From: Escherichia coli
Lineage (GTDB): Bacteria > Pseudomonadota > Gammaproteobacteria > Enterobacterales > Enterobacteriaceae
DNA: 64,000 bases
Strand: one strand, 5' to 3'
Assembly (NCBI RefSeq): GCF_041248615.1
Contig: NZ_CP158426.1
Shown here: positions 39,001 through 42,000 of the stretch, piece by piece
Numbering within the stretch: position 1 is the stretch's first letter
How the letters are laid out: each line of letters opens with the position of its first letter
Made by a program: the position numbers

Positions 39001-42000
39001 GGCACGTCTCCTATCTGGCAAATGCCCGCAAACTGGGTGACCGCCTGATTGTCGCTGTGAACAGCGATGCCTCCACCAAACGGCTGAAAGGGGATTCCCG
39101 CCCCGTTAACCCGCTCGAACAGCGTATGATTGTGCTGGGCGCACTGGAAGCGGTCGACTGGGTGGTGTCGTTTGAAGAAGACACGCCGCAGCGCTTAATT
39201 GCCGGGATCCTGCCAGACCTGCTGGTGAAAGGTGGCGACTATAAACCAGAAGAGATTGCCGGGAGTAAAGAAGTCTGGGCCAACGGCGGCGAAGTGCTGG
39301 TGCTCAACTTTGAAGACGGTTGCTCGACGACCAACATCATCAAGAAGATCCAACAGGATAAAAAAGGCTAACCGGAAAGCGTTTCACAGATCTCGCTTCG
39401 TACCTGGCAGGCCTATTGACGCTGTTGTTTTTTCAACCTAAAGTAAAGGAACAAGGGTAAGGGAGGATTTCTCCCCCCTCTGATCAGTTGTTAGTAAGTC
39501 GGGAAACTTAACAGTAACAACACAACCAGTATGATGACGAACTTCATCATAACCCTTTCCTTCTGTAAGGCCCCTTCTTCGGGAGGGGCTTTCCCGTTTC
39601 AGCCCCTTGCTGACTCCCCGATTGTTGATGAGCGCCGGACCCCGCGCAACGCTTTCCCTGAGGTAGTTTTGCCTTCCCCGAGTGGTCACGCAAAACGCTG
39701 CAACGACCTGAGCATTTGCAGTTTTTTGCGGAACGCAGATATAAAAAATCCCCGGCCTTTTGGGCCAGGGATGTTCATAGTTGAAAATTTATTCTACGTT
39801 TTCTGCGACGGGAGTTGTTGAGGTTAAGGGGGAAGTCAATGCCGCCAGCGAGCCGCCTGAAACGCCAATTTCATTGAGTAAGGAGTCAATCAGCGGTGCC
39901 TGTGTGCGGTAAGAGAGTGCGGCTGATAACGCTTGTTCCGCCAGGTTTCCGCCCCCTACATTACCCGTGTTTGCATCACCCGCAGCGCTGCCACGATTCA
40001 GACCATCGACCTGAATAATCTTGATACCGTCAATAGATTTCATCGGCTCAACGGATTTTTCTATTACCGCAGGTAGCGCCTGCAACAAGGCCAGTTTGAA
40101 TTTAAGGCTAGTTTGCTCGTCAGAAAGTACGTTGATAGCGTCGTTCAGCGCACGTTGTGCTTCTGCTTCCGCCAGACCCTTTTTACGTGTAGCTTCGGCT
40201 AACTCAACGATCGCCGCCGCCTGCATCTCTGCGGCTTCTTTTTCTGCTTTCGCCCGCACGGTCAGTTCAACCGCTTTGGTTTCTGCATCCTGCGCGGCAG
40301 CGATTAGGGCAACTTGTTTAGCACGATCGGCTTCTGCGGTCTGGCGAGTTGTTTCTACGTTTTGCTGGGCGCTTACCGCTTCTGCAAGTGCAAGGTTGGC
40401 ACGCGCTTCCGCTTGTGACTGTTGTTCCGATTTGGCGGCAATCGCGATCGATTTCGTCTGGTTAGCGATTTCGGTGACCTGCTGCTGTTCGATCTCTTTA
40501 ATGCGAACTTCACGTTCAGCTTCAACTTTTCTGGAACGGACGGCCTGTTCGCGGTCGATTTCTGTTTCCTGAATCTGTCGTTCAGCCAGAATTCGCGTCT
40601 GCTCAGCTTCCCGACGACGCTCGGCCTCAAAAGCCGCAATTTTCGCATTCTGCTCAGCGGTACGGGTTTTAACCTGCTGCTCCTGCTCAAGCGTCATAAA
40701 CGCTTCTTGTTGTTCAATCTCCAGCTTCCGCGAAAGCGCATCACGGTTTTTCTCACGCACCGCAACTTCTACATCCTGTTCAACTTCGTTACGTTCGCGA
40801 CGACGGCGCTCCGTCTCCTGCGTCAGCTTGGTTAAACCTTCGGCGTCAAAGGCGTTGTTAGGATTGAAATGTTCTTTCGACGTCTGGTTAAAGTTGGTAA
40901 GTGAAACGCTTTCCAGTTCCAGACCGTTTTTCGACAGATCTTCAGCTACGGTATTTTGTACTCCCTGCACGAAGTTCTCGCGGGTATCCTGTAACTCATG
41001 CATGGTCATTTGTGCAGCTGTTGCACGGAGGGCATCGACGAATTTATCTTCAACCAACATACGTAAATCTTCTGGTGATAGCGTGCGTTGCCCCAACGTT
41101 TGGGCAGCGGTGGCAATCCCTTCTACTGAAGGTTTTACCCGCACAAAGAAAGCGACTACTACATCGACGCGCATACGATCTTTCGTAATCAGGCTATCAA
41201 TGGTTGAGCGGCTGACTTCCAGCTTCAGAGTATTCATATTGATGGGGATTATTTCATGAAAGATCGGCATCACGATTGCGCCACCGCTCATTACCACTTT
41301 TTGCCCACCTAAACCAGTACGAACAAAAGCTTGCTCTGCCGAAGCGCGACGATAGAGCCTGGCGAAAATAATTCCAATAATAAACAGAATGCATACGGAA
41401 ATAATCGCGGTAAACATCCAGGAGGGCACAGAATTAACAATATCATCCATTATTAAATTTCCTTTTGATTAATAAATTACAATATTTGGGGCCAGGGATT
41501 GTTTTCCGCCAAATATCGCGTTGCAGAAAGTCGGCAAATAATTAACACTTTGTCTCCTTTAGTGAAAATTTTTCCTTCTTCAGGCTCCAGTAGTAAATAA
41601 TGTATTTGGCCAAATTGATCGGTGAGTTTTCCTTCGCAGGGATTACCTGAAGTGGCCTGATGACCGGTAATTAACGCCATGCTACCAATATATTCTTCTT
41701 CTGTAATAGCTGAGCTCTGGTCGCGTGGAATCCAGGGCGCAACTATTTTACCGATATAATGCACCGCAATAATCGTAAACAGTAAACTGACAGGAACCAC
41801 TAACAGGTTCGAAAGTGGTGATTGCCAGACCATGATGCAGGCATGCTGCAACAGGATGCCAATAAGACCAAAAAAACCAGCCAGTAAGCAGAGAACGACG
41901 AGAGCTGGCAATCTTCCGATATTGAGATAATGAAGTGCCTGGCTAATATGACCTGTGGTTATGGAATCATAATGGTCAAGATGTGCATCAAGTGCACCGG

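What the first reader, a model, noticed from the sequence alone, without database searches (positions are those of the whole stretch)
39372..39788. Single ibs/sib type I toxin-antitoxin copy in the hldE-yqiK intergenic region
Reverse-complement translation of 39491-39550 gives MMKFVIILVVLLLLSFPTY, the Ibs hydrophobic toxin signature, with hairpins on both strands consistent with an overlapping Sib antisense RNA. From memory, K-12 carries two tandem copies (sibD/ibsD and sibE/ibsE) at this locus; only one is detectable here in a 417-bp gap.
Basis: partly seen in the sequence, partly recalled or inferred. Interest (0 to 1): 0.4.

Follow-up and report, generated by a model that had tools for sequence, protein, structure and literature searches.

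The report
One ibsE/sibE toxin-antitoxin copy, common variant
The gap between hldE and yqiK holds one intact, already annotated copy of the well-known Ibs/Sib small-toxin and antisense-RNA module; K-12 has two copies here, but about a quarter of complete E. coli genomes also have one, so this is ordinary strain variation.

Summary
Window 39491-39550 (-) encodes MMKFVIILVVLLLLSFPTY, which matches Pfam Ibs_toxin at 44.5 bits (cut-off 27). The opposite strand gives one full-length Rfam SIB_RNA match at 141 bits (cut-off 56), the only one in the 64 kb window. K-12 does carry two tandem units here, sibE/ibsE and sibD/ibsD, 375 bp apart in a 794-bp gap. This window has one unit in a 417-bp gap.

The window is E. 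coli NRZ14408 (NZ_LT599825.1, 800001-864000). RefSeq already annotates this ORF as ibsE.

The single-copy layout is not rare. It occurs in 1325 of 5425 complete E. coli genomes. Most others have two units, and O103:H2 12009 has three. E. albertii and Escherichia sp. E1V33 have two units, so one copy is most likely a derived loss by recombination between repeats.

The unit looks functional:
- Sib promoter TTGACG/TAAAGT with an A start, and a terminator hairpin.
- An ibs ribosome-binding site and a conserved upstream promoter-like pair.

The predicted 144-nt Sib RNA (39451-39594) matches K-12 SibE at 139 of 144 positions.

Verdict: a known system and a common copy-number variant. Interest is low.

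The parts
39372..39788 (.). hldE-yqiK intergenic gap (417 bp) holding one Sib/ibs repeat unit. The unit spans about 39416-39772.
   Evidence: ORF list and RefSeq annotation. Unit boundaries come from alignment to the K-12 tandem units.
39416..39444 (+). sib promoter: -35 TTGACG (39416-39421), 17-nt spacer, -10 TAAAGT (39439-39444).
   Evidence: Promoter scan, 9 of 12 matches. The -35 is identical in all 23 units compared; the -10 is TAAAGT in 14 and TAGAGT in 9. K-12 sibE has TAGAGT and K-12 sibD has TAAAGT.
39451..39594 (+). Predicted Sib antitoxin RNA, 144 nt, SibE type, starting with A. It covers the whole ibs ORF and ribosome-binding site on the opposite strand.
   Evidence: Ends mapped from the MG1655 sibE annotation by gap-free alignment: 139 of 144 identical to SibE and 132 of 145 to SibD. 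Rfam RF00113, 141 bits. Fold -54.4 kcal/mol, z = -3.76. The +1 A is present in all 23 units.
39497..39519 (+). Segment equivalent to SibC target-recognition domain 1 (TRD1, pairs inside the ibs ORF). It is identical to K-12 SibE.
   Evidence: Alignment with the five K-12 Sib RNAs. TRD1 is defined as +46 to +68 of SibC in PMC2943612.
39550..39569 (+). Segment equivalent to SibC target-recognition domain 2 (TRD2, pairs with the ibs translation-initiation region). Here it reads CTGT as in K-12 SibD, not ATAC as in K-12 SibE.
   Evidence: Alignment. This site is polymorphic among strains independently of core type.
39567..39592 (+). Sib terminator hairpin (AAGGCCCCTTC-TTCG-GGAGGGGCTTT) followed by a weak U tract.
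   Evidence: Fold. It coincides with the annotated 3' end of K-12 SibE and is conserved in all units. It was not flagged by the simple terminator scan, which needs at least 5 T in 8.
39491..39550 (-). ibs toxin ORF: 19 codons plus stop, MMKFVIILVVLLLLSFPTY (IbsE with L4F). Protein WP_001387082.1.
   Evidence: Translation. Pfam PF13956 Ibs_toxin, 44.5 bits against a cut-off of 27. RefSeq annotates ibsE at exactly these coordinates.
39553..39563 (-). ibs ribosome-binding region (GAAGGAAAGGG, with AAGGA 7 nt upstream of the ATG).
   Evidence: Read from the minus-strand sequence. Conserved in all 23 units apart from one polymorphic base.
39621..39649 (-). Putative ibs promoter: -35 TTGCGC (39649-39644), 17-nt spacer, -10 AACAAT (39626-39621). 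The inferred transcription start is about 39612-39615.
   Evidence: Inference. The hexamers are read and score 8 of 12, below the scan threshold. The -10 is invariant in 23 of 23 units and the -35 in 22 of 23. The position agrees with the 18-nt 5' overhang of ibsC mRNA beyond the SibC 3' end in PMC2943612.
39748..39772 (-). Intrinsic terminator of yqiK (ATCCCTGGCCCAAAAGGCCGGGGAT plus a T run). It forms the right end of the repeat unit. In two-copy strains a second copy of it lies between the units.
   Evidence: Terminator scan and alignment to the K-12 units.

Best explanation
This is one intact unit of the chromosomal Ibs/Sib type I toxin-antitoxin repeat, of the ibsE/sibE type, at the conserved hldE-yqiK site of E. 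coli NRZ14408.

Mechanism, inferred from the K-12 homologues: a sigma-70 promoter drives a 144-nt Sib RNA on the plus strand. A weaker promoter on the minus strand drives an ibs mRNA of about 160 nt that encodes a 19-residue hydrophobic peptide. Sib is perfectly complementary to the ibs ORF and its ribosome-binding region. It pairs first through two recognition segments (TRD1 in the ORF, TRD2 at the translation-initiation region). This blocks translation and exposes the duplex to RNase III. If Ibs is made, it inserts into the inner membrane and collapses membrane potential and ATP.

The presence of one unit rather than K-12's two is a common copy-number variant of a 375-bp tandem repeat (1 to 3 units among E. 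coli). It most likely arose by loss of a unit through recombination between repeats.
For: Shown here:
- Full-length Rfam SIB_RNA match, 141 bits against 56.
- Pfam Ibs_toxin match, 44.5 bits against 27.
- 139 of 144 identity of the predicted Sib to K-12 SibE, and a peptide that differs from IbsE only by L4F.
- Intact sib promoter with +1 A, terminator hairpin, ibs ribosome-binding site and conserved ibs promoter-like hexamers.
- RefSeq annotates ibsE at the same coordinates.
- The same flanking genes as the K-12 sibD/sibE array.

Copy number:
- 1325 of 5425 complete genomes have the colinear one-unit layout; most of the rest give two places.
- O103:H2 12009 has three ibs ORFs.
- 30 independent assemblies carry this haplotype at 99% identity or more, 10 of them at 100%.

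Derived loss:
- E. albertii and Escherichia sp. E1V33 have two tandem units at the same site.
- The E. albertii distal core differs by 1 nt from the E. coli distal (D-type) cores, and its proximal core groups with the E. coli proximal cores.
- Single-copy genomes carry any of three core types: E, D or a QAY type.
- The window unit equals the MLI108K3 proximal unit left of 39697-39705 plus its distal unit to the right, with 3 mismatches, against 12 and 23 for either unit alone.

Mechanism from the literature:
- TRD1/TRD2 recognition, RNase III cleavage and the ibs start site: PMC2943612.
- Membrane depolarisation by IbsC, and the dispensability of its N-terminal residues other than V5: PMC8309996.
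- Inhibition of FoF1 ATP synthase by Salmonella IbsA: bioRxiv 10.1101/2025.05.26.656083.
Against: Nothing here measures transcription, repression or toxicity in this strain.

The ibs promoter and start site are inferred by analogy with ibsC and ibsD. The hexamers score only 8 of 12.

The chimera result is post hoc: it is the best of 8 two-copy strains. The locus is also strongly mosaic. hldE and yqiK flanks of the same strains vary from 87% to 99% identity, and the MLI108K3 flanks are not the closest. Ordinary allelic recombination between existing single-copy haplotypes could therefore give the same pattern.

Only two outgroup loci were complete. E. whittamii and MOD1-EC7003 were cut off at the end of the held sequence. 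E. fergusonii and Salmonella were not examined.
Confidence: 0.93

Rival explanations
1. The single copy is the ancestral state of the locus, and the K-12 pair (sibE plus sibD) is a later tandem duplication within E. coli.
For: The GTDB representative E. coli genome, SCPM-O-B-8794, also has one unit. About 24% of complete genomes have one unit. PMC2887945 describes lineage-specific duplications of ibs.
Against: E. albertii and Escherichia sp. E1V33 have two units at the same site. The E. albertii distal core is 1 nt from the E. coli D-type cores but 14 differences from the window's E-type core, so both core types predate or cross the species boundary. Single-copy genomes carry three different core types, which fits several independent reductions better than one retained ancestor.
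Confidence: 0.07
2. The one-copy layout is an assembly artefact, in which two tandem 375-bp units were collapsed into one.
For: Tandem repeats can collapse in short-read assemblies. Two outgroup loci (E. whittamii, MOD1-EC7003) are cut off shortly after the Sib unit, which could mean their draft contigs end there, though that was not established.
Against: The two units in two-copy strains are only 85-92% identical, which assemblers resolve easily. The same 901-bp one-unit haplotype is 100% identical in 10 complete genomes (three of them ST2747 records) and 99% or more in 30. The one-unit layout is seen in 1325 complete genomes.
Confidence: 0.01
3. The unit is a decaying, non-functional remnant, with a silent toxin or antitoxin.
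For: Function was not measured. PMC2887945 notes that sequences of some type I loci, specifically chromosomal hok/sok loci, have degenerated in some strains. The peptide carries L4F relative to K-12 IbsE. At least one strain, EC0900, has lost the whole array without apparent harm.
Against: The ORF, ribosome-binding site, both promoters, the +1 A and the terminator are all intact and conserved. The Rfam match is full length and scores like the K-12 copies, 141 bits against 142-148. The F4 peptide is a widespread allele that also sits at the proximal position in O103:H2 and MLI108K3, and E. albertii's proximal peptide likewise has F at position 4. Position 4 lies in the N-terminal part that is reported dispensable for IbsC toxicity (PMC8309996).
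Confidence: 0.04

Closest known systems
sibE/ibsE of E. coli K-12 MG1655 (b4611/b4666)
   Same: It has the same position next to the hldE stop codon and the same orientation. The RNA is 139 of 144 identical and the TRD1 segment is identical. The peptide is 18 of 19 identical. The -35 element, the +1 A and the terminator are the same.
   Different: The peptide has L4F. The -10 is TAAAGT, as in K-12 sibD, rather than TAGAGT. The TRD2-equivalent segment reads CTGT, as in K-12 SibD, rather than ATAC. No second unit (sibD/ibsD) follows, so the unit's right end abuts yqiK directly.
sibD/ibsD of E. coli K-12 MG1655 (b4447/b4664)
   Same: It belongs to the same repeat family and the same intergenic region. 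It shares the -10 hexamer and the CTGT variant at the TRD2-equivalent site, and its unit is likewise the one abutting yqiK.
   Different: Identity is 132 of 145. The TRD1 segment differs at 6 positions. The IbsD peptide MMKLVIILIVLLLVSFAAY differs at 5 of 19 residues.
Single-copy hldE-yqiK haplotypes of other E. coli (ST2747, XJ6.1, KE55, O166:H15, PCN033, Ecol_AZ161, N17)
   Same: They have the same one-unit architecture. ST2747 and 9 other records are 100% identical over 901 bp.
   Different: Other single-copy strains carry different cores: N17 has the D type, and WP8-S18 and PCN033 have a QAY type.
Other chromosomal type I toxin-antitoxin repeats of E. coli (ldr/rdl, zor/orz, shoB/ohsC)
   Same: Each has a small hydrophobic membrane toxin repressed by an antisense RNA. 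They are often tandemly duplicated, with strain-variable copy number (PMC2887945).
   Different: They are unrelated in sequence. Sib is fully cis-antisense over the whole ORF. These families were not tested here.

Membership tests
Ibs toxin family (Pfam PF13956) | 18-19-residue hydrophobic peptide that matches the Ibs profile | tested here: met
   PF13956 scores 44.5 bits (cut-off 27), E = 1.3e-11, over profile positions 1-19 of 19. One upstream residue was added to reach the tool's 20-residue minimum. The NCBIfam scan returned nothing, although RefSeq names the ORF an Ibs family toxin.
Ibs toxin family (Pfam PF13956) | Intact ORF with start codon, stop codon and ribosome-binding site | tested here: met
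   ATGATG...TAA with no internal stop. AAGGA lies 7 nt upstream of the ATG.
Ibs toxin family (Pfam PF13956) | Overproduction arrests growth and depolarises the membrane | not testable with these tools
   Known for IbsC and other K-12 Ibs peptides (PMC8309996). The L4F change lies in the reportedly dispensable N-terminal part, which is an inference.
Sib antitoxin RNA (Rfam RF00113) | Full-length match to the sequence and structure model above the gathering score | tested here: met
   141 bits against 56, model positions 1-147 of 147, E = 4e-29.
Sib antitoxin RNA (Rfam RF00113) | Encoded antisense to an ibs ORF and covering it completely | tested here: met
   The predicted Sib at 39451-39594 (+) encloses the ibs ORF at 39491-39550 (-) and its ribosome-binding site.
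Sib antitoxin RNA (Rfam RF00113) | Own promoter and intrinsic terminator giving an RNA of about 140 nt | tested here: met
   TTGACG, 17 nt, TAAAGT, with +1 A. The hairpin at 39567-39592 lies at the position of the K-12 SibE 3' end. The simple terminator scan did not flag it.
Sib antitoxin RNA (Rfam RF00113) | Sib RNA accumulates and represses its cognate ibs | not testable with these tools
   Shown for K-12 SibC and SibD (PMC2943612). No expression data are available for this strain.
K-12-type tandem sibE-sibD array at hldE-yqiK | Located between hldE and yqiK, with ibs on the yqiK strand | tested here: met
K-12-type tandem sibE-sibD array at hldE-yqiK | Two tandem units about 375 bp apart | tested here: not met
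   The window has one unit only. It belongs to the one-unit haplotype class found in 1325 of 5425 genomes.

The most novel reading that the evidence does not exclude
In K-12 terms, the surviving unit combines a SibE-type TRD1 and peptide with a SibD-type -10 element and TRD2 variant. It could therefore be a recombinant with altered specificity or expression. The 1-to-3-unit polymorphism at hldE-yqiK could then be lineage-structured and selected, tuning the total Ibs/Sib dose or the cross-talk with the four other Sib-like places in this genome, rather than being neutral repeat instability.
Probability: 0.06. Interest if true: 0.3.

Novelty: already known. Interest (0 to 1): 0.07.

Why it matters
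It matters little beyond correct annotation. The module is a textbook type I toxin-antitoxin pair. Its ORF is already annotated in this genome's RefSeq record, although the Sib RNA gene is not. Strain-to-strain variation in ibs copy number has been published (PMC2887945). The modest added value is a number and a direction. About 24% of complete E. coli genomes carry one unit at this site, a few carry three, and the two-unit state appears older than E. coli. This is relevant to anyone using K-12 sibD/sibE results, such as target discrimination or NAD capping, to reason about other strains.

Tried and rejected
- NCBIfam scan of the peptide padded to 20 residues: no hit. Pfam did hit.
- Fozo et al. 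2008 (PMC2597788) and the 2008 MMBR review (PMC2593563) are not held. Their statements on strain variation could not be cited, so PMC2887945 was used instead.
- I first took the window to be E. coli ST2747, because the locus is 100% identical. A whole-window comparison showed that only about 19-60 kb aligns, at 98-99%. The true source is NRZ14408, NZ_LT599825.1.
It returned only five Escherichia loci, all at hldE, and two of them were cut off. E. fergusonii, Salmonella and Citrobacter were therefore not sampled.
- The test for a proximal-left plus distal-right chimera is clear only for MLI108K3 and gives little or no gain for the other seven two-copy strains. Flank identities show a mosaic locus. 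I therefore treat unequal crossover as likely but not shown.
- Second hidden copy: rejected.
- Plasmid origin: rejected. Sib-like DNA is in only 15 of 72,556 plasmid records, mostly mislabelled chromosomes or very large records.

Full report
**1. The observation**

- hldE ends at 39371 and yqiK, on the minus strand, ends at 39789. The gap is therefore 39372-39788, 417 bp.
- The reverse complement of 39491-39550 translates to MMKFVIILVVLLLLSFPTY followed by a stop.
- A scan of the whole 64-kb window against Rfam gives one SIB_RNA (RF00113) match, at 39416-39565 on the plus strand. It scores 141 bits against a gathering score of 56, with E = 4e-29, and covers the full model.
- A permissive rescan of 38800-40400 found no second plus-strand copy. 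The only other SIB match is the sub-threshold mirror hit of the same unit on the minus strand.
- No direct repeat is present in 39200-39950.
- The peptide, padded by one upstream residue to meet the tool's 20-residue minimum, matches Pfam PF13956 Ibs_toxin at 44.5 bits against a cut-off of 27. NCBIfam gave no hit.
- Both strands fold significantly better than shuffled controls: z = -3.76 for the Sib strand and z = -3.77 for the predicted ibs mRNA.

**2. Comparison with K-12**

MG1655 annotates sibD/ibsD and sibE/ibsE between yqiK and hldE. The K-12 gap is 794 bp and holds two units 375-377 bp apart.

Transferring the annotated SibE ends by a gap-free alignment puts the Sib RNA at 39451-39594. 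It is 144 nt long and begins with A. It is 139 of 144 identical to SibE and 132 of 145 to SibD. The peptide is IbsE with L4F and differs from IbsD at five residues.

**3. Anatomy of the unit**

- The repeat unit runs from the sib -35 element (TTGACG, 39416) to the yqiK-type terminator hairpin (39748-39772).
- The sib promoter is TTGACG, a 17-nt spacer, then TAAAGT.
- The Sib terminator hairpin is at 39567-39592.
- On the minus strand, AAGGA lies 7 nt upstream of the ATG.
- Upstream of that lies a promoter-like pair, TTGCGC, a 17-nt spacer, then AACAAT (39649-39621). It scores only 8 of 12. However, the -10 is invariant in 23 of 23 units from 14 genomes and the -35 in 22 of 23.
- That pair places the ibs start near 39612-39615. 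This agrees with the 18-nt 5' overhang of ibsC mRNA beyond the SibC 3' end reported by Han et al. (PMC2943612). This step is inference.
- The two SibC target-recognition domains (PMC2943612) were mapped through an alignment of the five K-12 Sib RNAs. The TRD1 equivalent (39497-39519) is identical to SibE. The TRD2 equivalent (39550-39569) carries CTGT, as K-12 SibD does, rather than the ATAC of SibE. That site is polymorphic among strains regardless of core type.

**4. Source and existing annotation**

The locus is 100% identical to E. coli ST2747, but the window as a whole is not that genome. It is E. coli NRZ14408, NZ_LT599825.1 positions 800001-864000. RefSeq already annotates an ibsE CDS (WP_001387082.1) at exactly 39491-39550. 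The same protein accession is annotated in Ecol_AZ161, O103:H2 12009 and MLI108K3.

**5. How unusual is one copy?**

I searched 5,426 complete E. coli genomes with a 901-bp query spanning both flanks.

- 1325 of 5425 matching genomes hold one colinear place that covers at least 80% of the query. This is the one-unit layout. Every row sampled from that class has one place and one annotated ibs ORF.
- The remaining genomes split the query at the repeat boundaries, mostly into two places.
- O103:H2 12009 has three ibs ORFs.
- EC0900 has lost the array and neighbouring genes next to an IS903B element.
- Thirty complete genomes carry this haplotype at 99% identity or more, ten of them at 100%. Assembly collapse is therefore not credible.
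- Across the species, Sib-like places per genome range from 2 to 11, with a median of 6. NRZ14408 has 5.
- PMC2887945 already reported that Ibs numbers differ between strains and species: 6 in EDL933, 3 to 7 in Shigella, 7 in E. fergusonii and 2 in Salmonella.

**6. Direction of change**

An exact-pattern scan of one genome per species found five Escherichia loci, all at hldE. E. albertii and Escherichia sp. E1V33 each have two tandem units between hldE and yqiK. The GTDB representative E. coli has one. Two loci were cut off.

Among 23 units, the Sib cores fall into three main types:
- an E type, usually proximal to hldE, with peptide ending PTY;
- a D type, usually distal, ending AAY;
- a QAY type.

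The E. albertii distal core is 1 nt from the E. coli D-type cores, and its proximal core is nearest the E. coli proximal cores. Single-copy genomes carry E, D or QAY cores. This favours an old two-unit state with repeated reductions.

The window unit equals the MLI108K3 proximal unit left of 39697-39705 joined to its distal unit on the right. That chimera has 3 mismatches, against 12 and 23 for either unit alone. This is what unequal crossover would produce. The test is post hoc, though, and the flanks show a mosaic locus. Allelic recombination between existing haplotypes is not excluded.

**7. Mechanism**

All of this is inferred from homologues.

- Sib RNA is perfectly complementary to ibs. 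It nucleates pairing at TRD1 and TRD2, blocks translation, and the duplex is cut by RNase III (PMC2943612).
- IbsC overproduction depolarises the membrane within minutes. Residues 6-19 and V5 matter, and the other N-terminal residues are dispensable. L4F is therefore unlikely to inactivate the peptide (PMC8309996).
- Salmonella IbsA is reported to inhibit the Fo sector of ATP synthase (bioRxiv 10.1101/2025.05.26.656083).
- The +1 A and the sibD-like promoter make NAD capping of this Sib plausible (PMC12956327).

**8. Verdict**

The finding is correct, but it describes a known, annotated module in a common copy-number state. It is not novel. Interest is low.

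Noticed in passing
window 1-19,200: A genomic island abuts tRNA-Ile(CAU) (19124-19199, minus strand). It carries LutB/LutC, a truncated gntP, ISKpn26, a type I restriction-modification system (hsdR/S/M), a YeeP-like GTPase, Ag43, an antirestriction protein, a JAB/RadC protein and a YeeU/CbtA type IV toxin-antitoxin pair. ST2747, which is identical at the ibs locus, has nfeF/aer/ygjG next to the same tRNA instead.
   Followed up: partly
window 10870-11106 (+): An Rfam IS102 RNA match (71.8 bits against a gathering score of 46) lies between the YeeP-like GTPase gene and the Ag43 gene inside the island.
   Followed up: no
window 45792-49405: An IS3-family element (48177-49405) truncates the fimbrial usher gene, which is annotated as a pseudogene at 45792-48167.
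   Followed up: no
window 52819-52855; L020 7860-12474: ST2747 carries an aryl-sulfate sulfotransferase, an IS150-split dsbL and dsbI between ygiC and ygiD. The window lacks this cluster, and ygiD and ygiC are 37 bp apart.
   Followed up: no
L004 (E. coli EC0900) 2573-3700: In this strain an IS903B element sits directly after hldE. The whole sib/ibs array, yqiK and further genes up to a fimbrial cluster are missing, so the locus is dispensable.
   Followed up: no
L015 (E. coli O103:H2 12009) 749-3625: This strain has three tandem ibs/sib units, one E type followed by two D type. Its yqiK is truncated by an IS3-family element.
   Followed up: partly
window 38772-39371 and 39776-40375 against L002-L018: The 3' ends of hldE and especially yqiK are unusually diverged among E. 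coli strains: 93.5-100% for hldE and 87-100% for the last 600 nt of yqiK. Nearest neighbours differ on the two sides, which indicates a recombination-mosaic region around the repeat.
   Followed up: no
L006 (E. albertii) 615-764 against E. coli distal units: The E. albertii distal Sib core differs by only 1 nt in about 144 from the E. coli O103 and O157 distal cores, although the hldE 3' end is only 90% identical between E. albertii and this window. This suggests either very strong constraint or transfer between species.
   Followed up: no
PLSDB plasmid collection: Sib-like DNA occurs in only 15 of 72,556 plasmid records. Most are megabase-size records, probably mislabelled chromosomes, or records larger than 270 kb. 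This fits the published view that the family is chromosomal and not horizontally spread.
   Followed up: partly
window 60997-64000: A TonB-dependent siderophore receptor gene and the start of an ABC transporter gene follow parE. They were not compared with K-12.
   Followed up: no
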